A DNA stretch of 60,635 bases from Candidatus Woesearchaeota archaeon (GCA_018664115.1 JABJOX010000050.1:1-60635); one strand, 5' to 3'; counted from the stretch's first letter, positions 1,615 to 55,510 are shown. Made by a program: numbers and translations. Notes: a model not told the origin generated them from the sequence alone.

Positions 1615-1926
1615 ATGACCAGTGATTCTTCAATTGACGAAATTGTAACTTTAGTCGGTAAAGTAGTAATGGTTTTAAACGAATCAGAACTTTATGTCGG
1701 AAAACTAGAAAACATGAACCCTTTGACATTACAAGCACCATATTTATTGATCAAAAAAGAAACAGATAAAATGGCTATAGTTCCGCATACAAAAAATTCT
1801 GTTACTTTAGAAGGAAGAATGGATTTATATAATGAAGGTGCTCTTGGAAAAAAAATGAGGTTTTTATGTTATTCTCCAAGAGATGAAAGTGTTCTAAAAA
1901 AGATGATTGATGCGGTTTATGATTAA
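1615..1926 (+). CDS. small hypothetical protein, possible Sm-like fold
   Basis: 103-aa ORF. GKVVMVLNESELYVGKLENMNPLTLQ loosely resembles the Sm1 motif. TATA-like tatttaaata lies about 30 nt upstream. Confidence 0.4.
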   Translation: MTSDSSIDEIVTLVGKVVMVLNESELYVGKLENMNPLTLQAPYLLIKKETDKMAIVPHTKNSVTLEGRMDLYNEGALGKKMRFLCYSPRDESVLKKMIDAVYD

Positions 1927-2606
1927 ACCCATTTAGTGGCAATTGTTCCCGGGCCTCTTCTCCCAACAATCGGACCATCATCATAAACCAGATTTGCTGC
2001 GGCCATGTTCTCTCTGATGATTCTTGCGCAGGAATAAGTAGCGATGATAGCTGAATCTTTCATTACTCTAAACATTTCTTTAAATAATTCTATTTCCCAC
2101 ATTTCCGGTTGAGCTTTTGGAGAAAAAGGATCATAAAAAACAGCATCGAAATACTTTTCAGGTAAGTTTTTTGCAGCTTTCTTAGCATCCTCAACAAATA
2201 AAGTGATTTTGATATTATTATTCTCATAAACATATTTCTTATTTTCTTTAATCTCATTACTTTCAACCAATTCTCTGTACAAAGTATAAGATTTTATTGG
2301 CGGTTTAACTTCTTTAATTTTGTTAATTATCTCTGGATCATTTTCTACAGCAACAATTTCAATTTTACAATCAGGATTTTCTTCTAAAGCAACATCAATC
2401 GCCATTGCAGAATTATAGCCAATGCCGAAAAACATATCCAAGATTCTTACTGTTCCCGTTTTAGCAAGTTCTTTAATTTTACAAGGGATAGAATATTTCT
2501 TCAACGCTTCTTCAACGGCTCCAGTTTGCGAATGGTACGTTTGTTGTACTTCTGCGTTTAGAAACGTTTCTGTATTGTCCAATGTGAGGAATTTGCTGAG
2601 TTTCAT
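1923..2606 (-). CDS. MnmC-like SAM-dependent (tRNA) methyltransferase domain protein
   Basis: VRILDMFFGIGYN (SAM-binding loop) and DAVFYDPFSPKAQPEMWEIELFKEM match the MnmC methyltransferase-domain / DUF752 signature. Confidence 0.7.
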   Translation of the reverse strand: MKLSKFLTLDNTETFLNAEVQQTYHSQTGAVEEALKKYSIPCKIKELAKTGTVRILDMFFGIGYNSAMAIDVALEENPDCKIEIVAVENDPEIINKIKEVKPPIKSYTLYRELVESNEIKENKKYVYENNNIKITLFVEDAKKAAKNLPEKYFDAVFYDPFSPKAQPEMWEIELFKEMFRVMKDSAIIATYSCARIIRENMAAANLVYDDGPIVGRRGPGTIATKWV

Positions 2607-2642: not shown

Positions 2643-2835
2643 TGTCTCAACTAAGAACAATTAGTTATTCACTACATAATAATAGTAAATAAGCGAAACA
2701 TTTATAAATAGATTATGATAAAAATATAATGAATAGTGGGGTAATTAAAAATGAACAAGTTCCACCTAAAAGTGTAGGTTTTTTTTATATTAAGTAAGTC
2801 GGTTTCGAGGTGTTTAAAATTGACTTATCAAAAAT

Positions 2836-5800
2836 ATGAAATCCACAATAGAGAAAGCATTAGCAGATCGTCTAAATTCAGGTAGAATAGATAGAGAAAC
2901 CTACGATAATCTGCTTGGTTATTTTAGACACCAAAATAAAAATAATCTTGCTAAGGGCGCTGCAAAGGTTTATGAGTTAAGGTATGGTGAAGACAAAAAC
3001 CTTTCTAATTATGTTAGTTTAGCAATAGAACATGGAGATTGGGCTAATGAAAAAGATATTAAAAAAGCTAGTGAAAGCTTAGATAAAATTCTAGAAGCTG
3101 CAAGTAAAAAAGGAAACAAAGATTATTTTGCTTTAGCTGAAGATTTAAATAATCCTGAACATGCAGATTTATATGCCACATTTATTCTTAACATTCCGGA
3201 AGTAAGAAATCAAGTAAAAGCTGAAGTTGGTACCTACGAAAATCTTTATCGGGTAACAAGCGGTATTCTTAGGAATAGAAATGGAGATGATGATGAAGAA
3301 GAAGAAAAGAAAAAGCCTAAATATCGAAGAGAAAGAAAGGAGAGCGAGAAACCTACTGAGGATTTAGAACCAAATAAACTTTATCTAGACATTCTAAAAT
3401 TATTGCCAGATGACCATTTCTCAGATTTAAAAGAAACACCAGACAAATTATCATCTCAACAAAAAGAAGAACACGAAGATAAGGTAAGATTATATTCTGT
3501 CCTTAAAGAAAAAGCAAAGCGGGATAGTTTTAAACTTTTCAAAAATGATGAACCGCATGAAGCAATCAGTAATTTAGAAAATTTTGTAAACAAACAAACA
3601 AATAGTAACATTCATTATTTATACGAGGATCAATTAGAAATTTTTAGAGGTTACATTGATTTTCAAGAGAAATTATTAAATGAAGAATATATTAATCCAG
3701 ATTTTGAAAATCCAGCTACTGGAGAAAAAAATGTTTTACCATCATTTCACCAGTTGGTTGCTATTTATCACAACTTAGAAGAAAAACGGTTTGGTATTTT
3801 TGATGATTGTGGTACTGGAAAAACTGCAATTGCTGCTCTTCTTAAGCCTTTAATTATTGATAAAAGAGAGAAAGAAGGAAAGACAGTTCACGGTAGAACT
3901 TTAGTCATCGGCCCTAAAGCTAGTTCTAAAGCTTGGAATGATGGATTAGAAGGAGAATTAAAGAAAAGATATTTTTCTCAAAAGCAAAAAGTTGCTTGGA
4001 TAAATGGTAAGAAAGATAATGAATTTTTGGAAGAACTTAAAGAATCAGATTTCATGTTTGTTAATTATGAACAATTATTAACTGACTTTTGTCTTGATGG
4101 AGAAAAAAAGAAAGTTTATGAAGTCTTAATGGAATTAGGTTATGACCATTTAATTATTGACGAAGTTCAAGAAGCTAAGAACCATCAGACGAGTACTAAA
4201 AATGGAAAAATAACAGAAAGTCTTGCAGTCCGTATATTAGCTACAGATTCAAAATGCGAACATTTAAGTTTATTATCTGGAACTCCAATGCCTGATAACT
4301 TGAATGATTATGCCAACATTTTCTTCATGCTCAAACCAGATTATTTTATTGAAAAAACTGTCATTGATGGTAAACAAATAAAACAATTAAAATTTGATGA
4401 CATTAAAGATAGATTTAAAGAAATCTATGAAGGCGATCCACGAGCATTATATACATTTGTTAGACAGAACACAATCAGAAGAACTAGTGAAGAAGTAAGT
4501 GATTTGCCTGGACACAAAATAATTGAAGATGATATTGAATTAACGCCAGTACAGGAAAAGATTATTAAACATATTTTTAAACAAGGTAAACCTGATTGGA
4601 TTAGTCAAGTCAGGTATGCCCTTTTAGATCCGCGTTTAGTTTCTCCAGAAATTCTTCAAGAGATGGATTTAATAGGAAAAGTTACTAGAGAAGATTCAGC
4701 AAAATATAATAGATTGGAAGAACTTTTATCTGCTAGTGATGGGCCTCTTGCTAATAACGAAAAAGTAGTTATTTTCTCTAGCATGTATAAGAATGGAGTA
4801 ACAAGAAATGCAAAGAATCTAAAAGAAGAATATGCACGGTTAGGATTATCTGAAGAATTTAAAAAATTAGATATTAAAGATATTAAAGAAGAATTAGAAA
4901 CCAATTTACAACAAAAGTTTAAACGTCAAGTTAAGTTCACTACGATTGATGGCGATACAAGTTGTTATGAACGTGAACAAGCCGTTGATCAATTGAATAA
5001 TGGATTAGATGGCATTATTTGTACCACAAAGTCTGGAGGAGTCTCAATGAATTTCTCCGCTGCCACCACTGCTATCTTCTTAGATCAGGATTATAGTCCA
5101 GCAACTACAGAACAAGCAATTGCAAGGATAGTTCGAAGAGGACAAAAAAGTGAAACAAAAATATATTTTTTATATGGAAAAGATTCAATTGATCATGATA
5201 TAAAAAAATTAGTTGAAAACAAACAAACAAATATCCAGATTGCTTTAGATGGAATTGATTTGCTTGATAAAGAGAAGGACATTATTTGGGGTAATAATAC
5301 AGACCGAATTAAAGATTTATATTTAAAAAGAAAGGGAGGATTGTCCATTGATTTATCAGATCATTTGATTGATGACATTAATTCGTTCCAAACTAAATTG
5401 GTCAGAAAGAAGAAAGGCACTTCACAACCTATAATTCAACAAGACATTTACGAAGAAACTGTTGCTCAAGAAATAAGGAAAAAAATAGCTAGCGACCCAA
5501 ATTGTTGGCATGATCAAGAATTCGTGCAAAAATATTTTGACCATTTCAAAAATTTAGGTCCTTACTTATTAGCTCGAGCAAAAGTAACTGATATAATTAG
5601 AAGAAGTTTAAATGAACAAATTGAATTTCCTAAATTATTATTAGCTGACGCTGCAGGTCATGGAGTTTTATATTCCGCTTTCCAAGAATTAGATGAATTA
5701 GTTGGAAATAATGGTTTTGAAATGCCCCTAATTGTTGACCGAGATTTTTCTCAACCAATGTATGACTTGAGTTTAAACCCCCACAAGTATTTAGCAGACA

Positions 5801-6447
5801 TGTGTGGCCAACCAGGAATTTTTGATCAAACTTTCTTTGAAGAGTTTGGTAAATTTGATTTTATTGATAACTCATCTATCTCTTTATTGCCTAACAAAAA
5901 CAGAATAAGAGATTACGTTTTAGAAAGCAACAGAATTTTAGAACTTGGAGGTCATTTTCAATTAGGCGTTCGTAGTTTACGGTTTGATGAAAACTTTTTT
6001 GAAGGGATGAAAAGATCTGGATTTGAACCGATTGTAAAATCTGTTCGACACAACATCTCAAATGAATTATTTAAATTCCTAAAAAAACAATTTGGTCAAC
6101 ATTATGCAGGAGCATATCAGTCTAAATTGAACAATACTAATTTTTCACTTTTCCAGAAAGTTGATGAAGTTCATGCAGTTGAAGATAAGTATTTTAGATT
6201 GATGAATCCCGATCATATTGAAGAAGAAGAAGTTTCTAAAGAACCTGTTAAAGTAGAAAAAACTATGAGTAAAGGGGGCAATTTTTATGTTTACAGTAAA
6301 CCTATGAAAGGAAAGAAAGTATGGTACGTTAAAGGTACAATAGATCAACAGGATGTAATTAGGGCTTTGGTCGAAGAACATGGAGTAATGGCAATTCCTG
6401 AAAATATTTTAAAAGAAAATAATTTGTCTAGGAGCCGAAAAAGATGA
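2836..6447 (+). CDS. SNF2-family helicase fused to a C-terminal Rossmann/SAM-methyltransferase-like domain
   Basis: 1203 aa. Helicase motifs: DDCGTGKTAIA (motif I), LIIDEVQEAKN (DExQ), LLSGTPMPDN (III), GGVSMNFSAATTAIFLDQDYSPATTEQAIARIVRRGQ (V-VI). C-terminal strand pattern: LLLADAAGHGVL, LIVDRD, FDFIDNSS, ILELGGHF. ATGA overlap with the next gene. Confidence 0.85.
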   Translation: MKSTIEKALADRLNSGRIDRETYDNLLGYFRHQNKNNLAKGAAKVYELRYGEDKNLSNYVSLAIEHGDWANEKDIKKASESLDKILEAASKKGNKDYFALAEDLNNPEHADLYATFILNIPEVRNQVKAEVGTYENLYRVTSGILRNRNGDDDEEEEKKKPKYRRERKESEKPTEDLEPNKLYLDILKLLPDDHFSDLKETPDKLSSQQKEEHEDKVRLYSVLKEKAKRDSFKLFKNDEPHEAISNLENFVNKQTNSNIHYLYEDQLEIFRGYIDFQEKLLNEEYINPDFENPATGEKNVLPSFHQLVAIYHNLEEKRFGIFDDCGTGKTAIAALLKPLIIDKREKEGKTVHGRTLVIGPKASSKAWNDGLEGELKKRYFSQKQKVAWINGKKDNEFLEELKESDFMFVNYEQLLTDFCLDGEKKKVYEVLMELGYDHLIIDEVQEAKNHQTSTKNGKITESLAVRILATDSKCEHLSLLSGTPMPDNLNDYANIFFMLKPDYFIEKTVIDGKQIKQLKFDDIKDRFKEIYEGDPRALYTFVRQNTIRRTSEEVSDLPGHKIIEDDIELTPVQEKIIKHIFKQGKPDWISQVRYALLDPRLVSPEILQEMDLIGKVTREDSAKYNRLEELLSASDGPLANNEKVVIFSSMYKNGVTRNAKNLKEEYARLGLSEEFKKLDIKDIKEELETNLQQKFKRQVKFTTIDGDTSCYEREQAVDQLNNGLDGIICTTKSGGVSMNFSAATTAIFLDQDYSPATTEQAIARIVRRGQKSETKIYFLYGKDSIDHDIKKLVENKQTNIQIALDGIDLLDKEKDIIWGNNTDRIKDLYLKRKGGLSIDLSDHLIDDINSFQTKLVRKKKGTSQPIIQQDIYEETVAQEIRKKIASDPNCWHDQEFVQKYFDHFKNLGPYLLARAKVTDIIRRSLNEQIEFPKLLLADAAGHGVLYSAFQELDELVGNNGFEMPLIVDRDFSQPMYDLSLNPHKYLADMCGQPGIFDQTFFEEFGKFDFIDNSSISLLPNKNRIRDYVLESNRILELGGHFQLGVRSLRFDENFFEGMKRSGFEPIVKSVRHNISNELFKFLKKQFGQHYAGAYQSKLNNTNFSLFQKVDEVHAVEDKYFRLMNPDHIEEEEVSKEPVKVEKTMSKGGNFYVYSKPMKGKKVWYVKGTIDQQDVIRALVEEHGVMAIPENILKENNLSRSRKR

Positions 6448-7337
6448 GTGAAAAGAAATCTAAAAGAGATTGGAAGAACATGTCAAATGATAAACTAAAA
6501 GAATATTGTAATGATAATTATGCTGGAATGAGTAGAAATGAAGTTCAAAAAATAGATGGTAGCTTTTATCAGGTAATAGGAAATAGAGGATTGTTAAATG
6601 AATTAATAGAAAGTAAAATCAAACCTCGAAGAGAGTGGAAGAGTATGTCAAATGATGAACTAAAAGAATATTATCATGAAAATTATGCTGGAATGAGTAG
6701 AAGTGAAGTTGCAAAAGCCGACAGTAGTTTTTATATGATTGTGATAGAAAAAAAATTATTTGATGAAGGATTAACTGAAAGTAAACATAGAGATTGGCAA
6801 AGCAAATCTGATGAAGAACTTAAACAACATTATCATGATAATTATTCTGGAATGAATAGAAGTGAAGTTCAAAAAATAGATGGTAGTTTTTATCAAGTAA
6901 TAGGAAATAGAGGGTTATTAGATGAATTAATAGAAAGAAAATTAATAGACTGGGAAGGTATGTCAGATGAAAAACTTGAAGAGCATTGTCAAGAAAACTA
7001 TTCTGGGATGAGTAGAAGTGAAGTTCAAAGAGAATGCAAAGGCTTCTATAATATAATTCTTAAGAGAGAGATAGCAGATAAATTAATCCCACCAACAAGG
7101 AAACCGAATGGTTATTATCAAGATATTGATAATATTCAAATTGAATTGGAAATAATTATTAAACAGTTAGATGGAAAATTTCCAAGAGTAAAAGATATTA
7201 AGAAAATAAGTACAGGGTTGCTAACGGGGATATATGATTATCATGGTTCCCTTACCACAGTAAAAATCCAGCTAGGTTACGCTGATAAAGAAATGGAAGT
7301 TCTTAAAGAAATTCTAGAGGAGCTGGGAGATGAGTAA
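6444..7337 (+). CDS. modular repeat protein 1 (4 A-modules + 1 B-module + common tail)
   Basis: Four copies of W..MS..LKEY...NY(A/S)GM(S/N)R(S/N)EV.K.D.SFY, then KPNGYYQDIDNIQ..., then the tail VKIQLGYADKEMEVLKEILEELGDE. Start overlaps the helicase stop (ATGA). Confidence 0.8.
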   Translation: MSEKKSKRDWKNMSNDKLKEYCNDNYAGMSRNEVQKIDGSFYQVIGNRGLLNELIESKIKPRREWKSMSNDELKEYYHENYAGMSRSEVAKADSSFYMIVIEKKLFDEGLTESKHRDWQSKSDEELKQHYHDNYSGMNRSEVQKIDGSFYQVIGNRGLLDELIERKLIDWEGMSDEKLEEHCQENYSGMSRSEVQRECKGFYNIILKREIADKLIPPTRKPNGYYQDIDNIQIELEIIIKQLDGKFPRVKDIKKISTGLLTGIYDYHGSLTTVKIQLGYADKEMEVLKEILEELGDE

Positions 7338-7413
7338 GAGAAGAAGTTTCAAAGGCTGGGAATTACAAGATTTCCAAAAGTATTGTAATGATAATTATGC
7401 TGGGATGAGTAGA
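7299..7413 (+). repeat. gene-junction cassette, 115 nt identical to 9900-10014
   Basis: Letter-by-letter comparison. Spans the tail of gene n, the ATGAGTAA overlap and the first 28 codons of gene n+1. Confidence 0.95.
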
Positions 7414-8493
7414 GATGAAATTCAAAAAGCAGACTATGGTTTTTTTATGATCATCTATAAAAGAGGATTACAAGACAAAATATTACCAGAGAAAAAAAGA
7501 AAACCAAATGATCACTGGAAAGATATTAACAATGTTCAAAGAGGATTAAATATAATTATTGAAGAATTAGGAAGATTCCCAATAACAACAACAGAAATAG
7601 AAACAAGAAATCCCGGATTATATGGTGGAATACATAAATATCATGGTGGAATAAGAAAAATAAGAGAATTATATGGTGAAAAGGAACTTAGAAAACCAGA
7701 CGGTTACTGGAAAGATATTGAGAATGTTCAAAAAGAACTAGAACCAATAATTGAAGAATTAGGAAGATTTCCAACAACAACAGAAATAGAAACAAGAGAT
7801 TCTAGGTTATATCGTGGAATACATAGATATCATGGGGGAATAAGAGAAGTAAGAAAATTTTATGGGGAAGTTGACCCCACAAAACCAAAGGATCATTGGA
7901 AAGATATTAACAATGTTCAAAAAGGATTAGAACCAATCATTGAAGAATTAGGGAGATTCCCAACAACAACAGAAATAGAAACAAGAAATTCTGGATTATG
8001 TGCTGGAATCCAAATATGTCATGGTGGAATAAGAGAAGTGAGAAAATTATATGGTGAAATTAATCATAATAAACCAGATGGTCATTGGAAAGACATTAAC
8101 AATGTTCAAAAAGAACTAGAACCAATCATTGAAGAATTAGGAAGATTTCCAACAACAACAGAAATACGAAAAAGAGATTCTGGGTTATGTTATGGAATAG
8201 AAGAATATCATGGTGGAATAAGAGAAGTGAGAAAATTATATGGGGAAGTTGATCCTCAAAAACCTAGTGGTTACTGGAAAAATACTGAGAATGTTCAGAA
8301 AGGACTAGAACCAATTATTGAAGAATTAGGAAGATTTCCAAAAGCAACAGAAATTAGAAAAAGAGATTCTGGGTTATATGCTGGAATACAAAAATATCAT
8401 GGCAATCTTACTCAAGTAAAAATTCAGCTAGGTTACGCAGATAAAGAAATGGAAGTTCTTAAAGAGGTCTTAGAGGAGTTGGGAGATGCGTAA
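7330..8493 (+). CDS. modular repeat protein 2 (1 A-module + 5 B-modules)
   Basis: Five tandem ~63-aa units of KP.G(Y/H)WKDI.NVQK.LEPIIEELGRFPTTTEI..R.S.L..GI..YHGGIREVRKLYGE. 8-nt overlap ATGAGTAA with the upstream gene. Confidence 0.8.
   Translation: MSKRRSFKGWELQDFQKYCNDNYAGMSRDEIQKADYGFFMIIYKRGLQDKILPEKKRKPNDHWKDINNVQRGLNIIIEELGRFPITTTEIETRNPGLYGGIHKYHGGIRKIRELYGEKELRKPDGYWKDIENVQKELEPIIEELGRFPTTTEIETRDSRLYRGIHRYHGGIREVRKFYGEVDPTKPKDHWKDINNVQKGLEPIIEELGRFPTTTEIETRNSGLCAGIQICHGGIREVRKLYGEINHNKPDGHWKDINNVQKELEPIIEELGRFPTTTEIRKRDSGLCYGIEEYHGGIREVRKLYGEVDPQKPSGYWKNTENVQKGLEPIIEELGRFPKATEIRKRDSGLYAGIQKYHGNLTQVKIQLGYADKEMEVLKEVLEELGDA
7501..8449 (+). repeat. tandem coding repeat, 5 units of about 189-192 nt (B-modules)
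   Basis: Unit starts (AAACCA/AAACCT..) read at 7501, 7693, 7882, 8071 and 8260. Confidence 0.9.
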
Positions 8494-9223
8494 GAGAAGA
8501 AGTTTCAAAGGCTGGGAATTACAAGATTTCCAAAAGTATTGTAATGATAATTATGCTGGGATGAGTAGAAGTGAAGTTGCAGACATAGATCCTGGTTTTT
8601 ATAAAAAAGTTCTAAAAGAAGGATTTACTGATGAAGTGTTACTAAAAAGTAAACAAAGAAGTTTTAAAGGCTGGGAGTTACAGGATTTTAAAGATTTATA
8701 TGAGAATAATTATGCTGGAATGAGTAGAAATGAAATTGCAGACATAGATCCTGGTTTCTATGGTAAAATTGGAAAAGAAGGGTTTATTAATGAAGTATTA
8801 CCAGAAAGTATAAAGAAACCTAATGGTTACTGGAAAAATATTAGTAATGTTCAAAGTGGATTAGAACCAATTATTGAAGAATTAGGAAGATTCCCAACAA
8901 CAGATGAAATTAATAAAAGAAATAGTGGATTAATGAATGCAATAAAAAGACATCATGGTAATCTCACTAAAGTAAGAGTTAAATTAGGTTATGAAAAAAC
9001 AAACTATGAAGACATTAACAATGTTCAAAATGGATTAGAACCAATTATTGAAGAATTGGGAAGATTTCCAACACGTAGTGAAATTAGAAAAAGAAATAAA
9101 AGACTATTTAGTGGAATAAGCAATTACCAAGGTGGCTTAATTAAAGTAAAAATCCAATTAGGTTACGCAGATAAAGAAATGGAAGTTCTTAAAGAAATTC
9201 TAGAGGAATTGAGAGATGAGTAA
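8486..9223 (+). CDS. modular repeat protein 3 (2 A-modules + 2 B-modules)
   Basis: Same module vocabulary and the same C-terminal tail. 8-nt overlap ATGCGTAA. Confidence 0.8.
   Translation: MRKRRSFKGWELQDFQKYCNDNYAGMSRSEVADIDPGFYKKVLKEGFTDEVLLKSKQRSFKGWELQDFKDLYENNYAGMSRNEIADIDPGFYGKIGKEGFINEVLPESIKKPNGYWKNISNVQSGLEPIIEELGRFPTTDEINKRNSGLMNAIKRHHGNLTKVRVKLGYEKTNYEDINNVQNGLEPIIEELGRFPTRSEIRKRNKRLFSGISNYQGGLIKVKIQLGYADKEMEVLKEILEELRDE
8491..8578 (+). repeat. gene-junction cassette, 88 nt identical to 9936-10023
   Basis: Letter-by-letter comparison. Confidence 0.95.
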
Positions 9224-9938
9224 AAGAAGAAGTTGGAAAGACTTGACTGTAGAAGATTTTCAGAAGTTTTACAATGATAATTATTCTGGAATGAGTAGAA
9301 GTGAAGTTGCAGAAGTGGATTCTAGTTTTTATAGTACAATTAAAAAAAAAAGATTATTAAATGAAGTATTTCCACCAAATAAGGGACATAAATTCACAAG
9401 TTGGCAAATTGAAGACTTTCAAAAATTTTATCAAGAAAATCATTTGGGAATGAGTAGAACCGAAGTTGCAAAAACAAATAGAAGTTTTTATAGGGCAATT
9501 GAAACCAGAAGATTACAAGATAAAGTATTTCCACCAAACCAACAACATAAATTTGTAAGTTGGCAAGTTGAAGACTTCCAAGAATATTACCAACAAAACC
9601 ATTCTAATAGGAGTAGAAGTGAAGTTCAAAAAGTGGATAAAAATTTCTATAAAGCAATGATAAGGAGACAAATACTGAATAAAGTCTTTCCAAAAAGTAA
9701 AAGAAAACCAAAAAGTCATTGGGGAAAAATTGATAATGTCCAATTAGAATTAGACACAATTATTGAAGAATTAGGGAGATTCCCAAAAGCAGGAGAGATT
9801 AAAGAAATAAATAATTCACTATGTACTGTGATATATAAATACCACGGTTCCCTTACTCAAGTAAAAATCCAGCTTGGTTACGCAGATAAAGAAATGGCTG
9901 TTCTTAAAGAAATTCTAGAGGAGCTGGGAGATGAGTAA
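9216..9938 (+). CDS. modular repeat protein 4 (3 A-modules + 1 B-module)
   Basis: Same module vocabulary and tail. 8-nt overlap ATGAGTAA. Confidence 0.8.
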   Translation: MSKRRSWKDLTVEDFQKFYNDNYSGMSRSEVAEVDSSFYSTIKKKRLLNEVFPPNKGHKFTSWQIEDFQKFYQENHLGMSRTEVAKTNRSFYRAIETRRLQDKVFPPNQQHKFVSWQVEDFQEYYQQNHSNRSRSEVQKVDKNFYKAMIRRQILNKVFPKSKRKPKSHWGKIDNVQLELDTIIEELGRFPKAGEIKEINNSLCTVIYKYHGSLTQVKIQLGYADKEMAVLKEILEELGDE

Positions 9939-10023
9939 GAGAAGAAGTTTCAAAGGCTGGGAATTACAAGATTTCCAAAAGTATTGTAATGATAATTATG
10001 CTGGGATGAGTAGAAGTGAAGTT
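9900..10023 (+). repeat. gene-junction cassette, partner of 7299-7413 and 8491-8578
   Basis: Letter-by-letter comparison. Confidence 0.95.
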
Positions 10024-10971
10024 CAAAGAGCAGATCCTGGTTTCTATCAAATAGTTAGAAATAAAGGGTTTACTGATGAAGTATTGCCAAAAAGTAAACT
10101 AAGGGATTTTACTGGTTGGGAATTACAAGATTATAAGGATCACACGAATGATAATTATGCTGGAATGAGTAGAAGTGAAATAAGATATATAGATAGAATT
10201 TTCTATGGAAAAATTAGAAGAGAAGGATTTATTGATGAAGTATTACCAGAAAGTAAAAAAATGAATTATACTGATTGGAGATTACAGGATTATAAAGATT
10301 ACGTAAATAATAATTATGCTGGAATGAGTAGAACCGAAATTGAAAAAGCAAACTCTGGTCTCTATAAGAAAATTGGAAGAGAAGGATTTACTGATGAAGT
10401 ATTGCCAAAAAGTAAACTAAGGGATTTTACTGGTTGGGGATTACAGGATTATAAAGATTACATGAATGATAATTATGCTGGGATGAGTAGAACCGAAATT
10501 GCAGATATAGATAGAATTTTCTATGGAAAAATTAGAAGAGAAGGATTTATTGATGAAGTATTACCAGAAAGTAAAAAAAGGAATTTTACTGGTTGGGAAT
10601 TACAAGATTATAAAGATCACATGAATGATAATTATGCTGGAATGAGTAGAAGTGAAATTGGAAAAGCAGATCCTGGTTTTTATAGAAAAGTTAGAAAAAA
10701 AGGATTTACTGATGAAGTATTACCAGGGAGTAAAAAAAAACCAAATGATTACTGGAAAGACACTGAGAATGTTCAGAAAGGACTAGAACCAATAATTGAA
10801 GAACTTGGAAGATTCCCAACATGGAGTGAAATCGATAAAAGAAATAGTACATTAAATGTTAGTATAAATAAATACCACGGCAGTCTCACTCAAGTAAGAA
10901 TTAAACTAGGTTACGCAGAGAAAGAGATGGAAGTTCTTAAAGAAATCTTAGAGGAATTGGGAAATGCGTAA
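9931..10971 (+). CDS. modular repeat protein 5 (5 A-modules + 1 B-module)
   Basis: Five ~53-aa units of F(K/T)GW.LQDYKD..N(D/N)NYAGMSR(S/T)EI...D..FY.KIRREGF.DEVLP.SK. 8-nt overlap ATGAGTAA. Confidence 0.8.
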   Translation: MSKRRSFKGWELQDFQKYCNDNYAGMSRSEVQRADPGFYQIVRNKGFTDEVLPKSKLRDFTGWELQDYKDHTNDNYAGMSRSEIRYIDRIFYGKIRREGFIDEVLPESKKMNYTDWRLQDYKDYVNNNYAGMSRTEIEKANSGLYKKIGREGFTDEVLPKSKLRDFTGWGLQDYKDYMNDNYAGMSRTEIADIDRIFYGKIRREGFIDEVLPESKKRNFTGWELQDYKDHMNDNYAGMSRSEIGKADPGFYRKVRKKGFTDEVLPGSKKKPNDYWKDTENVQKGLEPIIEELGRFPTWSEIDKRNSTLNVSINKYHGSLTQVRIKLGYAEKEMEVLKEILEELGNA

Positions 10972-11998
10972 GAGAAGAAGTTTCAAAGGTTGGAGATTAC
11001 AGGACTATGTTGATTTCTATGAAAGTAATTATGCTGGAATGAGTAGAAGTGAAGTTAAAAAAGTAGATTCTGGTTTCTATACTAAAGTTAGAAAAGAAGG
11101 ATTTGTTGATGAAGTATTGCCAGAAAGAAAACTAAAAGATTTTACTGGTTGGAAATTACAGGATTATAAAGATTACATGAATGATAATTATGCTGAGATG
11201 AGTAGAAGTGAAGTTCAAGAAGCAGATAAAAGTTTCTATGGGAAAATTAGAAGAGAAGGATTTGCTGATGAAGTATTGCCAGAAAGTAAGCGAAGAAGTT
11301 TCAAAGGCTGGACAGTAGAAGATTTTCAAAAGTTTTGTAATGATAATTATTCTGGGATGAGTAAAAGTGAAGTTGAAAAAGCAGATGGAGGGTTCTATAA
11401 TATAATTAGAAAAGAAGGGTTTATTGACGAAGTATTACCAGAAAGTAAACGAAGGGATTTTACTGGTTGGGAATTAAAAGACTATGTTGATTTCTATGAA
11501 AGCAATTATGCTGGAATGAGTAGAAGTGAAGTTAATAAAGCAGATGGGGGTTTCTATAATAAAATTAGAAAAGAAGGGTTTATTGATGAGGTGTTACCCA
11601 AAAATAAAAAAAGAAGTTTCAAAGGCTGGGAATTACAAGATTTTAAGGATTACATGAATAATAATTATTCTGGAATGAGTAGGAAGGAAGTTCAAAAAGC
11701 AGATTCTGGTTTCTATGAAAAAGTTAGAAAAGAAGGGTTTATTGATGAAGTATTTCCAAAAAGTAAATTTGGTTATTACAGAGATATTAACAATGTCCAA
11801 AAAGAGTTAGAATTGATAATTGAAAAATTAGATGGAAAATTTCCAAGAGTAAAAGATATTAAAGAAATAAGTACCGGATTGCTAACTGGGATATATGATT
11901 ACCACGGCTCTCTTACTCAAGTAAAAATCCAGCTTGGTTACGCTGATAAAGAAATGGCAGTTCTGAAAGAAATCTTAGAGGAGTTGGGAGAAAGTTAG
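10964..11998 (+). CDS. modular repeat protein 6 (5 A-modules + 1 B-module)
   Basis: Same module vocabulary and tail (..LGYADKEMAVLKEILEELGES). 8-nt overlap ATGCGTAA. Confidence 0.8.
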   Translation: MRKRRSFKGWRLQDYVDFYESNYAGMSRSEVKKVDSGFYTKVRKEGFVDEVLPERKLKDFTGWKLQDYKDYMNDNYAEMSRSEVQEADKSFYGKIRREGFADEVLPESKRRSFKGWTVEDFQKFCNDNYSGMSKSEVEKADGGFYNIIRKEGFIDEVLPESKRRDFTGWELKDYVDFYESNYAGMSRSEVNKADGGFYNKIRKEGFIDEVLPKNKKRSFKGWELQDFKDYMNNNYSGMSRKEVQKADSGFYEKVRKEGFIDEVFPKSKFGYYRDINNVQKELELIIEKLDGKFPRVKDIKEISTGLLTGIYDYHGSLTQVKIQLGYADKEMAVLKEILEELGES

Positions 11999-12003
11999 TT
12001 TCA

Positions 12004-12327
12004 TTATTCTTTAAACCGTTCATCAACTTTCTTAATTTTCTTTTGCAAAGCTTCTTCAATATCAACGCCCATATTTTCAGCTAAATTGCAAGTAGTTAAA
12101 ATGACATCAGCAAATTCTTCCTGCAAATTATCCATATCTTTTTTTTCTAACTTTTCTTTTCTCTGTAATCCTGAATGAGCAAGTACATCGTCACATAATT
12201 CTCCCAGTTCTTCCATGATCTTTATAGTGATTGGCATGTTTAACTTTCTAGGATCGTCGAATTTATAATAGCTTTCTAACTTCTTATGCATTCGTTTCGA
12301 AAAATCTTTTAGTTCTTGTATTTCCAT
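12004..12327 (-). CDS. MazG-like nucleoside triphosphate pyrophosphohydrolase
   Basis: EELGELCDDV ... EEFADVILT ... VDIEEALQKKIKKVDERF matches the all-alpha MazG/NTP-PPase pattern. Confidence 0.7.
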   Translation of the reverse strand: MEIQELKDFSKRMHKKLESYYKFDDPRKLNMPITIKIMEELGELCDDVLAHSGLQRKEKLEKKDMDNLQEEFADVILTTCNLAENMGVDIEEALQKKIKKVDERFKE

Positions 12328-40305: not shown

Positions 40306-40429
40306 TGTGGACGGCAGGACTCGAACCTGCGTAAGCACTAAGCTACTGGGTGTCTTCGAGAGAAGACCTCAGAAACTAGAGGTTTCTCGCGCCTAAGCCC
40401 AGCCCGTTTGACCACTCCGGCACGTCCAC
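40306..40429 (-). tRNA. tRNA-Leu(UAG), class II, with a 40-nt intron at 37/38
   Basis: Acceptor GUGGACG/CGUCCAC plus A. Anticodon stem CUGGG/CCCAG with loop CUUAGG[40 nt]A. Long variable arm UAGCUUAGUGCUUAC. T-arm GCAGG-UUCGAGU-CCUGC. Confidence 0.85.
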
Positions 40430-55402: not shown

Positions 55403-55510
55403 GCGCCTGTAGTTTAATGGCTAGAATCCGGGCCTTCCATAAGGTCTGTAGTCAACTACTCACTTTGATGTGAGCCTGTGATCTGGGTTCGAATCCCAGC
55501 AGGCGCACCA
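55403..55510 (+). tRNA. tRNA-Gly(UCC) with a 33-nt intron at 37/38 and an encoded CCA
   Basis: Acceptor GCGCCUG/CAGGCGC plus A plus CCA. Anticodon stem CGGGC/GCCUG with loop CUUCCA[33 nt]A. T-arm CUGGG-UUCGAAU-CCCAG. Confidence 0.88.

What the first reader, a model, noticed from the sequence alone, without database searches (positions are those of the whole stretch)
2836..11998. SNF2 helicase / methyltransferase-like fusion coupled to six genes built only from two short repeat modules
A 1203-aa protein carries a full SNF2 motif set (DDCGTGKT, DEVQ, SGTP, QAIARIVRRGQ) plus a C-terminal Rossmann/SAM-MTase-like domain. It is followed with no intergenic space by six genes spanning 5.5 kb. Those six genes contain nothing but two modules. 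Module A is about 50-53 aa, with consensus W.LQD(F/Y)..Y.NDNYAGMSRSEV.KAD.GFY.K(I/V)RKEGF.DEVLP.SK, and I count 20 copies. Module B is about 63 aa, with consensus KP.GYWKDI.NVQK.LEPIIEELGRFPT..EI..R.SGLY.GI.KYHGGIREVRKLYG, and I count 11 copies. Module counts per gene are 4A+1B, 1A+5B, 2A+2B, 3A+1B, 5A+1B and 5A+1B. Every protein ends in the same tail, ..VKIQLGYADKEMEVLKEILEELGDE. The helicase stop overlaps the first start as ATGA. All five internal junctions use the same 8-nt overlap ATG(A/C)GTAA, preceded by GGAG/GGGA, so the frame advances by one at each gene (start coordinates mod 3 are 0,1,2,0,1,2). Both modules resemble the short helical repeats attached to HNH/GIY-YIG homing endonucleases (the homing endonuclease associated repeat type). 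That suggests nucleic-acid-binding units, but no nuclease domain is present. I know of no described system that pairs an SNF2 motor with an array of such proteins. A MazG-like NTP pyrophosphohydrolase gene sits immediately downstream on the opposite strand. This could be a chromatin/DNA-remodelling or defence-like module, or a variable DNA-binding protein family.
Basis: partly seen in the sequence, partly recalled or inferred. Interest (0 to 1): 0.8.

Follow-up and report, generated by a model that had tools for sequence, protein, structure and literature searches.

The report
Snf2–methyltransferase motor with repeat-protein battery
A small symbiotic (DPANN) archaeon carries a conserved, undescribed operon: a DNA-translocating Snf2 motor fused to a methyltransferase, followed by a variable set of proteins made only of short helix-turn-helix-like repeats with one shared tail, which probably act as interchangeable DNA-recognition subunits.

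Summary
There are seven overlapping + strand genes (2836-11998): a 1203-aa Snf2 protein, then six proteins built from 20 A modules, 11 B modules and one common tail. It is not an assembly artefact, because at least six independent assemblies reproduce the array at 99.96-99.99% identity. The helicase C-terminus is a class I SAM methyltransferase fold. Module B is Pfam PF18780 (HNH_repeat). Module A is probably a diverged sister of B, with the same four-helix layout.

The main new result is conservation. About 20 diverged Woese-/Pace-/Nanoarchaeota loci pair the motor-methyltransferase with 1-11 tightly overlapping partner genes. Two Micrarchaeota loci, reached from the repeat proteins, show the same pairing. 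Partner modules vary, and one lineage has canonical HTH domains, but the C-terminal helix tail is always present. Most Nanoarchaeota-type loci also encode an AAG-fold protein that lacks the catalytic glutamate. In the window only a relic of about 20 codons remains.

My best reading is that the partners are alternative DNA-recognition or loading subunits that dock by the tail onto a dsDNA translocase-methyltransferase. The biological role (defence, epigenetic marking or nucleoid remodelling) is open. No known system matches and no description was found in the literature. I rate it a new variant of motor-plus-methyltransferase systems, with interest about 0.68.

The parts
2717..2797 (+). Relic of the last ~20 codons of the AAG-like (PF02245) partner gene ('..NEQVPPKSVGFFYIK*'). 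The rest of that gene is absent.
   Evidence: tblastn with the AAG-like proteins of L001, L002 and L003 all hit here weakly. The frame-2 translation ends like the intact genes ('N.VGFYYIR*').
2836..3729 (+). Helicase N-terminal region (aa 1-298). It is family-specific and conserved in all homologues, and its function is unknown.
   Evidence: Conserved columns in alignments A1 and A8. No Pfam or PDB match.
3733..5280 (+). Snf2-family ATPase core (aa ~300-815) with an intact Walker A (GTGKT), DEVQ, SGTP and QxxxRxxRxGQ.
   Evidence: Pfam SNF2-rel_dom aa 320-583 and Helicase_C aa 685-769. Motif residues are invariant in 15 homologues. Best PDB relatives are SSO1653 (1z63), ISW1, CHD1L, Rad54 and INO80.
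5461..6165 (+). Class I SAM-dependent methyltransferase domain (aa ~876-1110).
   Evidence: AF2 model m6927a68fea86, pLDDT 80, alternating beta/alpha core. The top 50 Foldseek PDB hits are all class I methyltransferase-fold proteins (one a methyltransferase-like cyclase); nucleomethylin 2zfu gives the best TM. The profile hits 2zfu at E = 1.5e-4 and Methyltransf_11 in 5 of 15 homologues. The motif II/III/IV-equivalent residues D970, M975, N981 and D1011 are invariant.
6166..6447 (+). Helicase C-terminal extension. It is basic and differs from the 'K.YTG..L.vD..tGlV' end found in homologues. Its stop overlaps the g1 start (ATGA).
   Evidence: Alignment A4; AF2 shows a low-confidence small beta/alpha unit; junction.
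6444..7337 (+). Partner gene g1 (297 aa): 4 A modules + 1 B module + tail.
7330..8493 (+). Partner gene g2 (387 aa): 1 A + 5 B + tail. PF18780 scores 40.6 bits.
8486..9223 (+). Partner gene g3 (245 aa): 2 A + 2 B + tail. In the AF2 model each module is four short helices and the tail is one long helix.
9216..9938 (+). Partner gene g4 (240 aa): 3 A + 1 B + tail.
9931..10971 (+). Partner gene g5 (346 aa): 5 A + 1 B + tail. One assembly (L034) lacks two A modules here (318-bp deletion).
10964..11998 (+). Partner gene g6 (344 aa): 5 A + 1 B + tail.

Best explanation
This is one member of a conserved DPANN-archaeal operon that encodes a multi-subunit DNA-transaction machine.

The large protein is a Snf2-type double-strand-DNA translocase. 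It carries a family-specific N-terminal domain and a C-terminal class I SAM-dependent methyltransferase. It is translationally coupled, through 1-, 4-, 8- or 11-nt stop/start overlaps, to a battery of partner proteins.

Each partner has a variable N-terminal string of small four-helix, helix-turn-helix-like modules. These are type A, type B (= PF18780), W-rich modules or canonical HTH domains, depending on lineage. Each then has a constant C-terminal unit, usually a last B-type module (absent in A-only partners), ending in an amphipathic, acidic helix tail.

I infer that the variable modules bind DNA. I also infer that the constant tail docks every partner to the same site on the motor-methyltransferase. 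On this reading the partners act as alternative DNA-recognition or loading subunits that decide where the translocase-methyltransferase engages the chromosome or foreign DNA.

New partners arise by unequal recombination between modules and between whole genes. In most Nanoarchaeota-type relatives a third component is encoded next to the motor: an AAG-fold base-flipping protein without the catalytic glutamate, probably a reader of a modified or damaged purine. This genome has lost it.

Shown: gene structure, domain identities, conservation of the gene pairing, tail conservation, reality of the array. Inferred: DNA binding by A/B modules, tail docking, methyltransferase activity and substrate, biological role.
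For: - Gene structure and modules.
- Snf2 core with intact, invariant ATPase motifs. The closest solved relatives are all dsDNA translocases (SSO1653, ISWI, CHD1L, Rad54, INO80).
- Methyltransferase fold with conserved residues at the cofactor-binding motif positions. Micrarchaeota counterparts carry strong Methyltransf_11/25 hits.
- Pairing of motor and arrays holds in about 19 diverged Nanoarchaeota-type loci (helicase identity 32-58%), with 1-11 partner genes.
- The reciprocal test, starting from repeat proteins of Micrarchaeota, again lands next to an SNF2-methyltransferase fusion with only 26% identity to the window's motor.
- Every partner, whatever its modules, ends in an amphipathic helix plus acidic end. 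Examples are EMEVLKEILEELGDE, LLEQYIGGEND, LESLLDKYVGGSE and AVNGVLDALDSFGDDE. AF2 predicts one long terminal helix.
- In L025 the tail-bearing partner contains canonical HTH_23, Sigma70_r4_2 and HTH_50 domains above the gathering score.
- B modules are PF18780, annotated as a probable DNA-binding repeat.
- In module A the most variable positions (36, 39, 40, 28, 32) lie on and before helix 3, next to the invariant F34-Y35 core. This is the pattern expected of an HTH recognition surface.
- Tight overlaps with an SD-like GGAGG/GAGGAG inside the tail codons occur at nearly every junction in 17 loci.
- Module gain and loss by recombination: a clean 2-module deletion in L034 and 318/378-nt super-repeats.
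Against: - No experiment or complex prediction links the tail to the motor. Tail conservation could serve partner-partner oligomerisation, and part of it (the GG/EE codons) may be conserved as a ribosome-binding site.
- The partners are not markedly basic (pI 5.4-9.4, net charge -9 to +9).
- No solved structure or DNA-binding assay exists for PF18780. The whole-chain model has no PDB match.
- The methyltransferase lacks the (D/N)PP(Y/F) and PCQ/ENV motifs of the DNA N6A/N4C and C5 methyltransferases (established motif knowledge, checked against the family alignment). It most resembles small-molecule, rRNA m1A and cap-N7 enzymes, so its substrate may not be DNA.
- The window's own C-terminal domain is below Pfam thresholds.
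- Distribution across DPANN appears patchy, and flanking genes give mixed signals: housekeeping in many loci, TA or mobile-element genes in others.
Confidence: 0.45

Rival explanations
1. Nucleoid or chromatin remodelling. The repeat proteins are abundant architectural DNA-coating proteins. The Snf2 motor slides or evicts them, and the methyltransferase modifies them (a protein methyltransferase, possibly acting on or docking to the acidic C-terminal tail, as CheR docks on receptor tails).
For: - The closest solved relatives of the motor are chromatin remodellers.
- The best single structural and sequence match of the methyltransferase is nucleomethylin/Rrp8, and none of the top hits is a DNA methyltransferase.
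- Many loci sit among informational or chromosome-organisation genes: gyrase in L001, L014 and L021; SMC in L014; ScpB in L001; FtsZ/Spt5 in L044; RNAP and ribosomal genes in L018.
- Translational coupling implies co-production of the partners with the motor.
Against: - Partner number and module content change drastically between species (1 to 11 genes). This is unusual for core architectural proteins.
- The system appears patchy in DPANN.
- The partners are not basic.
- The methyltransferase resemblance is at fold level only.
Confidence: 0.2
2. Anti-mobile-element defence or restriction-like system. The partners recognise foreign DNA and the motor translocates on it. The methyltransferase writes a base modification that the AAG-like protein reads, or excises without a general base, giving self/non-self discrimination or abasic-site damage.
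For: - Motor plus methyltransferase plus variable specificity proteins is the logic of Type I R-M, BREX and DISARM.
- PADLOC models of ZorD, DpdE, DrmD and BrxH are the nearest defence helicases.
- Partner repertoires turn over quickly between species.
- The AAG-fold partner is conserved and keeps an aromatic residue in most members at the position of the DNA-intercalating Tyr, but not Glu125.
- Some loci lie next to TA modules, an integrase, T4SS genes plus a C5 methylase, or Bro-N.
- A predicted archaeal SNF2-nuclease + methyltransferase + modified-base reader (EVE) system gives a conceptual precedent (PMC7641849).
Against: - No nuclease is present anywhere in the operon.
- PADLOC scores reflect generic Snf2 similarity (at most 81 bits), and NCBIfam scores are far below the cut-offs.
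- The AAG-like gene is dispensable: it is lost in the window and absent from the Micrarchaeota loci.
- Most neighbourhoods are housekeeping genes.
- There was no strain-level diversification: 1 SNP in 10 kb plus one indel.
- The system is not found on viral contigs.
Confidence: 0.17
3. Alkylation-damage or transcription-coupled repair module. An Snf2 translocase of the CSB/Rad26 or Mfd type works with an AAG-family protein, and the repeat proteins act as damage or DNA clamps.
For: The AAG-fold gene is adjacent in about 15 of 19 Nanoarchaeota-type loci. Rad26 and CSB are among the PDB relatives. Eukaryotic CSB is known to cooperate with base-excision repair (PMC1919475, listed).
Against: The catalytic Glu125 of AAG is replaced by S/A/R in all 13 members. 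This reading does not explain the fused methyltransferase or the large, fast-changing partner batteries. The AAG-like gene is lost here while the rest of the operon is intact.
Confidence: 0.08
4. No functional unit. The repeat genes are decayed remnants of homing-endonuclease DNA-binding arms that happen to lie beside a helicase, or the array is an assembly artefact of collapsed or expanded repeats.
For: PF18780 is typically found attached to HNH nucleases (Pfam description). The repeats are 51-92% identical at the DNA level, which could in principle confuse assemblers. One assembly has two modules fewer.
Against: - The gene pairing is conserved across loci whose helicases are only 26-58% identical, in at least two DPANN phyla.
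- All ORFs are intact.
- Median dN/dS among modules is 0.63, with an invariant core.
- Translational coupling is preserved everywhere.
- At least six independent assemblies agree at 99.96-99.99%.
Confidence: 0.03

Closest known systems
Type I / Type ISP restriction-modification (HsdR motor, HsdM methyltransferase, HsdS specificity subunit; phase-variable hsdS repertoires)
   Same: An ATP-driven dsDNA translocase is combined with a SAM methyltransferase and separate, exchangeable DNA-recognition subunits. The variable recognition parts are joined to conserved parts that hold the complex together. Repertoires change by recombination.
   Different: - The motor is Snf2-family, not HsdR.
- No PD-(D/E)xK or other nuclease is present.
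- The methyltransferase lacks the NPPY/DPPY motif and resembles Methyltransf_11/8 enzymes.
- The recognition subunits are strings of ~53-63-aa helical repeats, not TRD/coiled-coil HsdS.
- Up to 11 partners are co-expressed rather than switched.
Snf2-containing defence systems: DISARM (DrmD + DrmMI/II), Zorya (ZorD), Dpd (DpdE), BREX BrxH; and the predicted archaeal COG1743 MTase-DUF499-SNF2/nuclease-EVE operon (PMC7641849)
   Same: An Snf2 helicase is encoded with a methyltransferase. In the EVE case there is also a modified-base reader, which parallels the AAG-like protein here.
   Different: Only generic Snf2-core similarity is seen (PADLOC at most 81 bits; NCBIfam 30-72 bits against cut-offs of 610-1500). 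None of the signature partners is present (DrmA/B/C, ZorA/B/C, DpdA-K, PglZ/BrxC, DUF499, EVE). The methyltransferase is fused to the motor and is of a different family. Those systems have no repeat-protein batteries.
PF18780 'homing endonuclease associated repeat' proteins (HNH/GIY-YIG nucleases and haloarchaeal tyrosine recombinases with N-terminal repeats), and PF03457 'helicase-associated (HA) domain' repeats fused to bacterial helicases
   Same: The same kind of short helical repeat occurs (module B passes the PF18780 threshold). A weak BFVD structural hit to an HA-domain protein recalls helicase-fused repeats of this kind; the PF03457 description is from my own knowledge of Pfam.
   Different: There is no catalytic domain on the repeat proteins. 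The repeats are stand-alone genes in tandem, each with a family-specific docking-like tail. They are coupled to, rather than fused with, an Snf2-methyltransferase. Module A is not recognised by any Pfam model.
Eukaryotic ISWI/CHD remodellers with SANT-SLIDE/Myb-type three-helix DNA-binding modules and accessory DNA-binding subunits
   Same: An Snf2 dsDNA translocase is guided by small helical DNA-binding modules of about 50 aa, and accessory subunits set substrate choice. These are the closest solved relatives of the motor.
   Different: There is no sequence or detected structural similarity of modules A/B to SANT/Myb. The context has no established nucleosome link. The fused methyltransferase and the AAG-like partner have no counterpart.
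AAG/MPG 3-methyladenine DNA glycosylase family (PF02245)
   Same: The small partner gene in relatives aligns to human AAG at E ~1e-18 across the fold. Most members keep an aromatic residue or His at the position of the intercalating Tyr.
   Different: The general base Glu125 is S/A/R in 13 of 13 members. The His136 loop is deleted, and Asn169 is mostly Asp. The protein is about 160 aa long. It is encoded beside an Snf2-methyltransferase, and in the window it is reduced to a relic.

Membership tests
Snf2 family ATPases (PF00176 + PF00271) | Both RecA-like lobes with the Snf2-specific motifs (GxGKT, DExx, motif III, QxxxRxxRxGQ) and Pfam scores above the gathering score | tested here: met
   SNF2-rel_dom 54.5 bits (GA 24.9) and Helicase_C 49.5 bits (GA 23.5). 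The motif residues are invariant in 15 homologues. PDB profile hits to 1z63, ISW1, CHD1L and Rad54 at E = 1e-24 to 1e-25.
Snf2 family ATPases | ATP-dependent dsDNA translocation | not testable with these tools
   Inferred from family membership only.
Class I SAM-dependent methyltransferases (Methyltransf_11/25/8 type) | Seven-strand Rossmann-like fold | tested here: met
   AF2 model with pLDDT 80. Foldseek finds 632 PDB hits at E <= 1e-3; the top 50 are all class I methyltransferase-fold proteins (one a methyltransferase-like cyclase), at probability 1.0.
Class I SAM-dependent methyltransferases (Methyltransf_11/25/8 type) | Sequence-profile membership above the Pfam threshold | tested here: inconclusive
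   The window's own C-terminal domain gives only Methyltransf_8 at 13.4 bits (GA 27). Five of 15 homologues hit Methyltransf_11 (best E = 6e-6). The Micrarchaeota counterparts have unmarked (strong) Methyltransf_11/25 hits.
Class I SAM-dependent methyltransferases (Methyltransf_11/25/8 type) | Glycine-rich motif I and acidic residues of motifs II-IV that bind SAM | tested here: met
   The LLADAAGHG / xSEGSGPS loop is present. D970, M975, N981, D1011 and S1014 are invariant. Motif I is atypical in the window clade (A-A-G-x-G).
DNA N6A/N4C or C5 methyltransferases | (D/N/S)PP(Y/F/W) catalytic motif, or PCQ + ENV motifs | tested here: not met
   The motif IV position reads D-N-S-S-I-[ST]-L-L in the family alignment. 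No DNA methyltransferase appears among the top 50 structural hits.
PF18780 HNH_repeat (module B) | Whole-protein Pfam score above the gathering score of 26 | tested here: met
   g2 scores 40.6 bits. B-only partners of L001, L005 and L023 score 39.9, 50.2 and 57.3 bits.
PF18780 HNH_repeat (module A) | Whole-protein Pfam score above the gathering score, or significant profile-profile match | tested here: inconclusive
   No PF18780 hit for the A-rich g1, g4, g5 and g6. hhalign A versus B gives probability 12.5% with window modules only, and 69.5% (P = 4e-5), in register, with 304 A and 156 B modules. The helix order is the same in the AF2 model.
HNH / GIY-YIG homing endonucleases | A nuclease catalytic domain attached to the repeats | tested here: not met
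   Modules plus tail account for about 95% or more of each protein. No nuclease family appears in the Pfam, NCBIfam or PHROGs scans.
DISARM / Zorya / Dpd / BREX | Helicase reaches the family-specific model cut-off, and the signature partner genes are present | tested here: not met
   NCBIfam scores are DrmD 30.4 (cut-off 610), ZorD 31.4 (1500) and DpdE 11.1 (500). PADLOC hits cover only Snf2 core segments. Neighbours in the window and in about 20 loci lack the partner genes.
Type I restriction-modification | HsdR-type helicase-nuclease, HsdM gamma-class N6A methyltransferase and HsdS with two TRDs | tested here: not met
   No ResIII/HsdR-specific or nuclease domain beyond generic SF2 (ResIII 20.2 bits, below GA). 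The methyltransferase lacks NPPY. The partners are helical repeats. The resemblance is functional logic only.
AAG/MPG glycosylase family (partner gene in relatives; relic in the window) | PF02245 fold and sequence | tested here: met
   The profile of 13 members against human AAG chains gives E = 1.4e-18 to 6.5e-18. PF02245 is listed for L005, L006 and L008.
AAG/MPG glycosylase family | Catalytic general base Glu125 (the residue mutated in 1EWN E125Q) | tested here: not met
   The aligned column is S, A or R in 13 of 13 members ('EVSAW', 'EIAAY').

The most novel reading that the evidence does not exclude
DPANN archaea possess a previously unrecognised class of programmable DNA-targeting machine. 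A single Snf2 translocase-methyltransferase is directed by a genome-encoded, rapidly evolving library of modular helix-turn-helix-repeat adaptor proteins that share one docking helix. It is coupled to an AAG-derived reader of the methyl mark it writes. This would be a non-nucleolytic 'write-and-read' system for defence or epigenetic control, with no counterpart among known R-M, BREX, DISARM or chromatin-remodelling systems.
Probability: 0.2. Interest if true: 0.9.

Novelty: new variant of a known kind. Interest (0 to 1): 0.68.

Why it matters
DPANN archaea have tiny genomes of about 1 Mb, yet some devote 9-16 kb, up to about 1.5% of the genome, to this operon. That suggests strong selective value.

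If the partners are interchangeable DNA-recognition subunits, this would be a new way of giving one motor-methyltransferase many specificities. It would also supply a natural library of compact (~53-63 aa) modular DNA-binding repeats, which is of interest for protein engineering.

If the system remodels the nucleoid instead, it would be a rare prokaryotic case of an Snf2 remodeller with dedicated substrate proteins, relevant to the origin of chromatin remodelling.

Either way, it assigns a context and a testable partner to two uncharacterised repeat families: PF18780 and the roughly 550-cluster module A family. It also does so for an AAG-fold family that has lost its catalytic residue.

Tried and rejected
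- **Assembly artefact.** Rejected. At least six independent assemblies are 99.96-99.99% identical across the array. One assembly (L034) has a clean 2-module deletion in g5, which could be real polymorphism or a local collapse.
- **Strain-level hypervariability.** Not seen: 1 SNP in about 10 kb outside the indel.
- **Fold identification of the modules.** Whole-chain Foldseek of the g3 model against PDB gave nothing below E = 0.39. BFVD gave only weak hits to uncharacterised phage proteins. Coordinates of single modules could not be searched.
- **N-terminal 298 aa of the helicase.** No Pfam or PDB relative.
- **Membership in known defence systems.** PADLOC and NCBIfam show only generic Snf2 similarity.
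- **Viral origin.** The IMG/VR scan found only unrelated Snf2 proteins at 23-24% identity.
- **Metagenome scan with the module A pattern.** It returned just 2 loci, one of them the window's own population and one the same as L010. This was not useful for statistics.
- **Context look-ups for P0116 and P0046.** The contigs were too short.
- **Bacterial-type promoter/terminator scan.** Uninformative on archaeal DNA. No + strand terminator-like site lies inside the operon.
- **A versus B homology from window modules alone.** Not significant. It became suggestive only with broad profiles.
- **MazG as part of the system.** Rejected. It is present only in the window's own lineage.
- **The 0,1,2 frame walk as a signal (for example programmed frameshifting into a polyprotein).** It is an arithmetic consequence of the 8-nt overlap. 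Other lineages use 1-, 4- and 11-nt overlaps.
- **Literature.** No description of this operon was found.

Full report
**1. Observation**

The ORF list shows seven consecutive + strand ORFs at exactly the reported coordinates. They are a 1203-aa protein (2836-6447) and six proteins of 297, 387, 245, 240, 346 and 344 aa (6444-11998). The helicase stop overlaps the first partner start as ATGA. The five internal junctions are ATG(A/C)GTAA, each preceded by GAGGAG..GGGAG. The 0,1,2,0,1,2 progression of start frames follows arithmetically from an 8-nt overlap, so it carries no extra information.

Slicing the six proteins at the NY(A/S)GMSR and IIEELG anchors gives 20 copies of a 53-aa module A and 11 copies of a 63-aa module B. 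The arrangement is 4A1B, 1A5B, 2A2B, 3A1B, 5A1B and 5A1B. A modules always come first, then B modules, then the tail ..VKIQLGYADKEMEVLKEILEELGDE. Tandem Repeats Finder reports periods of 159 and 189 nt, plus two-module super-repeats of 318 and 378 nt.

The window is archaeal. It has two intron-containing tRNAs that Rfam finds and ARAGORN misses, and its G+C content is 31%.

**2. The array is real**

The exact g3 protein is on record in dozens of contigs. Seven fetched loci come from an NCBI MAG (GCA_018662135.1), several ENA assemblies and a JGI metagenome. Six of them match the window at 99.96-99.99% identity over 5-15 kb, with the same gene lengths.

One assembly (L034) differs by a clean 318-bp deletion that removes two A modules of g5. 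The breakpoints lie between the 92%-identical modules g5.2 and g5.4. Elsewhere L034 differs from the window by a single SNP. This deletion is either a real recombinational variant or a local collapse of that assembly. Another assembly (L036) has g2 interrupted.

A modules are 51-92% identical at the DNA level. Median dN/dS is about 0.63. The core is invariant (N18, Y19, G21, M22, S23, R24, E26, D31, F34, Y35). Variability is concentrated at positions 36, 44, 32, 39 and 28.

**3. The large protein**

- *Snf2 core.* Pfam places SNF2-rel_dom at aa 320-583 and Helicase_C at aa 685-769, both above threshold. A 15-sequence family alignment keeps all ATPase motif residues invariant. The nearest solved proteins are the Sulfolobus Snf2/Rad54 enzyme (1z63), ISW1, CHD1L, Rad54, CHD1, INO80 and DDM1 at E = 1e-22 to 1e-25. 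These are all double-strand-DNA translocases.
- *N-terminal region.* The N-terminal 298 aa are conserved in the family but match nothing in Pfam or PDB.
- *C-terminal methyltransferase.* The C-terminal 344 aa were modelled with AlphaFold2 on a 15-sequence alignment (pLDDT 80, pTM 0.70). Foldseek against PDB returns only class I SAM-dependent methyltransferase-fold proteins in the top 50, at probability 1.0 and E ~1e-6. Nucleomethylin/Rrp8 (2zfu) gives the best target-normalised TM-score (0.58), and cap guanine-N7 methyltransferases are also listed. No DNA N6A/N4C/C5 methyltransferase appears.
- *Sequence support.* The family profile hits 2zfu at E = 1.5e-4. Five of 15 homologues hit Methyltransf_11. 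The motif II-IV-equivalent residues D970, M975, N981 and D1011 are invariant. The motif IV position reads DNSSI(S/T)LL, not (D/N)PP(Y/F).

The substrate is unknown and need not be DNA.

**4. The modules**

Module B is PF18780 (HNH_repeat). g2 scores 40.6 bits against a gathering score of 26. B-only partners in other genomes score 40-57 bits.

Module A has no Pfam assignment. A-rich proteins hit only a PHROG of unknown function (phrog_20046, E = 6e-12).

The AF2 model of g3 (pLDDT 82) gives both A and B the same succession of four short helices. The tail forms one long helix at residues 227-244. With profiles built from 304 A and 156 B modules, hhalign aligns A to B in register at 69.5% probability, P = 4e-5. 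The alignment pairs W with W, NYAGMSRSEV with ELGRFPTTTEI, and FY with LY. I regard A as a probable diverged sister of PF18780.

A module A profile searched against 1.84 billion representative proteins finds 548 clusters at E <= 1e-3. Almost all are repeat-only proteins of 100-900 aa. Many show the same order of A modules, then B modules, then an amphipathic acidic tail.

The whole-chain model has no significant PDB fold match.

**5. Conservation of the gene pairing**

This is the decisive result. Helicase homologues of 32-58% identity occur in Woesearchaeota, Pacearchaeota and Nanoarchaeota MAGs. A scan of one genome per GTDB species gave 17 full-length loci. Together with the contig look-ups there are about 19 distinct loci besides the window.

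In essentially every locus with flanking sequence, the helicase is followed, and sometimes preceded, by same-strand overlapping genes made of such repeats. Counts are 2 genes in L001 and L002, 3 in L003 and L021, 5 in L016 and L023, 6 in L024, 9 or more in L014, 1 + 8 in L010/L043, and 3 + 8 in L005.

The reciprocal test started from A-module proteins annotated as Candidatus Micrarchaeota. Both long contigs carry an SNF2 + Methyltransf_11/25 fusion with only 26% identity to the window's core. It is immediately followed by five or six ATGA-overlapping A-module genes. The pairing therefore spans at least two DPANN phyla and deep sequence divergence.

No relatives occur on viral contigs.

**6. 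The constant tail and variable modules**

Module types differ between lineages: A, B, a W-rich 'W..EEW..hG...ERsWY' type, and others. In L025 the partner contains canonical HTH domains above the Pfam thresholds: HTH_23 at 44 bits, Sigma70_r4_2 at 41 bits and HTH_50 at 38 bits. L021 begins with a similar helical module (no Pfam HTH call).

Every partner still ends in an amphipathic helix with an acidic end, usually preceded by a last B-like module; the Micrarchaeota partners are A-only. Examples are EMEVLKEILEELGDE (window), LLEQYIGGEND (L021), LESLLDKYVGGSE (L005), ELAALEELVEVLG (L003) and AVNGVLDALDSFGDDE (Micrarchaeota). In L005 and L010 many partners also begin with this motif.

Variable recognition-type modules joined to a constant terminal unit is the anatomy expected of interchangeable adaptors for a common partner. 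That is the basis of my preferred mechanism.

One caution applies. The GG or EE codons at the very end of the tail spell GGAGG/GAGGAG 7-10 nt upstream of the next start codon. Part of the tail's conservation may therefore be a ribosome-binding-site constraint. The Micrarchaeota tails keep the helix and the G-D end with only a partial SD-like GGTGA. Part of the conservation therefore looks protein-level.

Junction overlaps of 1, 4, 8 or 11 nt occur at nearly every junction in 17 loci. This argues for translational coupling and coordinated production.

**7. A third component, lost here**

In about 15 of 19 Nanoarchaeota-type loci, a protein of about 160-200 aa sits next to the helicase, usually immediately upstream. 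It belongs to the AAG/MPG 3-methyladenine-DNA-glycosylase fold (profile against human AAG, E ~1e-18).

The general base Glu125 is the residue changed in the 1EWN E125Q structure, whose sequence appears in the alignment. In all 13 members this residue is S, A or R. The His136 loop is deleted and Asn169 is mostly Asp. An aromatic residue or His stands at the position of the intercalating Tyr in most members.

This looks like a base-flipping reader, or an enzyme restricted to labile cationic lesions, rather than a canonical glycosylase.

In the window, the 229-bp spacer upstream of the helicase retains only the last ~20 codons of this gene (2717-2797, '..PPKSVGFFYIK*'). The Micrarchaeota loci lack the gene. 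It is therefore an accessory component.

**8. Mechanism and alternatives**

*Shown:* a dsDNA-translocase-type motor fused to a SAM-methyltransferase fold; coupled batteries of HTH-like repeat proteins with a constant tail; conserved pairing of the two; module and gene turnover by recombination.

*Inferred (confidence about 0.45):* the partners bind DNA through their variable modules. They dock through the constant unit onto the motor-methyltransferase and so determine where it acts.

The biological role is open.
- A nucleoid-remodelling or protein-methylation reading is supported by three points: remodellers are the closest motor relatives, the methyltransferase is not of a DNA type, and many loci have informational-gene neighbourhoods. 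Gyrase lies within 10 kb in L001, L014 and L021, SMC in L014 and ScpB in L001.
- A defence or epigenetic 'write-and-read' reading is supported by the motor + methyltransferase + specificity logic, the AAG-like reader, fast partner turnover between species, and some TA or mobile-element neighbours.
- There is no nuclease. Matches to known defence helicases are generic.
- The partners are highly charged but near neutral (pI 5.4-9.4). This neither supports nor excludes DNA binding.

**9. Comparison with known systems, and novelty**

The system shares its operating logic with Type I R-M, BREX and DISARM, and with a predicted archaeal MTase-DUF499-SNF2/nuclease-EVE operon (PMC7641849). It fails every membership test for these systems (see the membership table).

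Its repeats belong to, or are sisters of, PF18780, but here they lack the nuclease that gives that family its name.

Full-text searches for PF18780, DPANN + SNF2, Snf2-methyltransferase fusions in archaea and related terms found no description of this operon.

I classify it as a new variant of motor-plus-methyltransferase multi-subunit systems. There is about a 20% chance that it is a categorically new programmable targeting machine.

Noticed in passing
window 2717-2797 (+): The spacer upstream of the helicase keeps only the last ~20 codons ('NEQVPPKSVGFFYIK*') of the AAG-like gene that precedes the helicase in most relatives. The rest of the frame is full of stops, so the partner gene has decayed or been lost.
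   Followed up: yes
window 12004-12327 (-): The MazG-like pyrophosphohydrolase is present downstream only in this organism's own assemblies. It is absent from all other loci, so it is not part of the conserved system.
   Followed up: yes
window 40306-40429 (-) and 55403-55507 (+): Two tRNA genes of 124 and 105 nt are found by Rfam but missed by ARAGORN. Their length implies introns, which fits an archaeal origin.
   Followed up: partly
window 6000-12000: Strong purine excess on the coding strand of the array (GC skew 0.33-0.47, AT skew 0.20-0.26, against roughly -0.2 to +0.2 in the rest of the window). This reflects the Lys/Glu/Arg/Gly-rich repeats.
   Followed up: no
window junctions 7316-7337, 8472-8493, 9202-9223, 9917-9938, 10950-10971; same in L005, L016, L021, L024: The last codons of each partner's tail (..EEL.. 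/ ..GG.E) spell GAGGAG/GGAGG 7-10 nt upstream of the next gene's ATG. The protein tail and the ribosome-binding site of the next gene are encoded by the same bases.
   Followed up: partly
L034 (ENA ERZ27237584), equivalent to window 10102-10578: One assembly of the same strain has g5 at 240 aa instead of 346 aa, through a clean deletion of two A modules between 92%-identical repeats. The same 240-aa product (P0026) is on record from 3 contigs. This could be real copy-number polymorphism or recurrent assembly collapse.
   Followed up: partly
L036 (ENA ERZ23491573) 1234-2397, equivalent to window g2: In one assembly g2 is split into 270-aa and 88-aa ORFs. There are only 2 mismatches to the window over 5.3 kb, so this is a premature stop or frameshift variant of one partner gene.
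   Followed up: no
L005 6698-20739 and L010/L043: In the Pacearchaeota locus and the L010 lineage, many partner proteins start as well as end with the tail motif (MTDAQLEGLLDTYVEG... and ...QLESLLDKYVGGSE). This hints at head-to-tail interactions, or at an origin by fission of a longer repeat protein.
   Followed up: no
L001 3766-8692, L014 75-9309, L021 17149-22542: Gyrase genes (some with inteins) lie within 10 kb of the system in three loci, with SMC in L014 and ScpB in L001. This may be chance or shared synteny, or it may hint at a chromosome-organisation role.
   Followed up: partly
L004 2-6794; L005 22464-23225; L001 16746-17325; L002 1-6017: Some loci sit beside mobile-element or defence-type genes: TrbC/T4SS pilin plus a C5 DNA methylase (L004), a tyrosine integrase (L005), and MazE/ParE, PIN/MazE and Fic (L001, L002).
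   Followed up: no
L044 8182-11886 and 17230-21032: The Micrarchaeota contig carries two separate arrays of A-module genes, four upstream and at least five downstream of the SNF2-methyltransferase. A TruD gene and a 190-aa ORF on the opposite strand lie between them.
   Followed up: no
window 1923-2606 (-): The gene that occupies the place of the AAG-like gene's neighbourhood is an MnmC2-type tRNA methyltransferase (NF033855, 112 bits; below the cut-off of 136). It is unrelated to the system.
   Followed up: no
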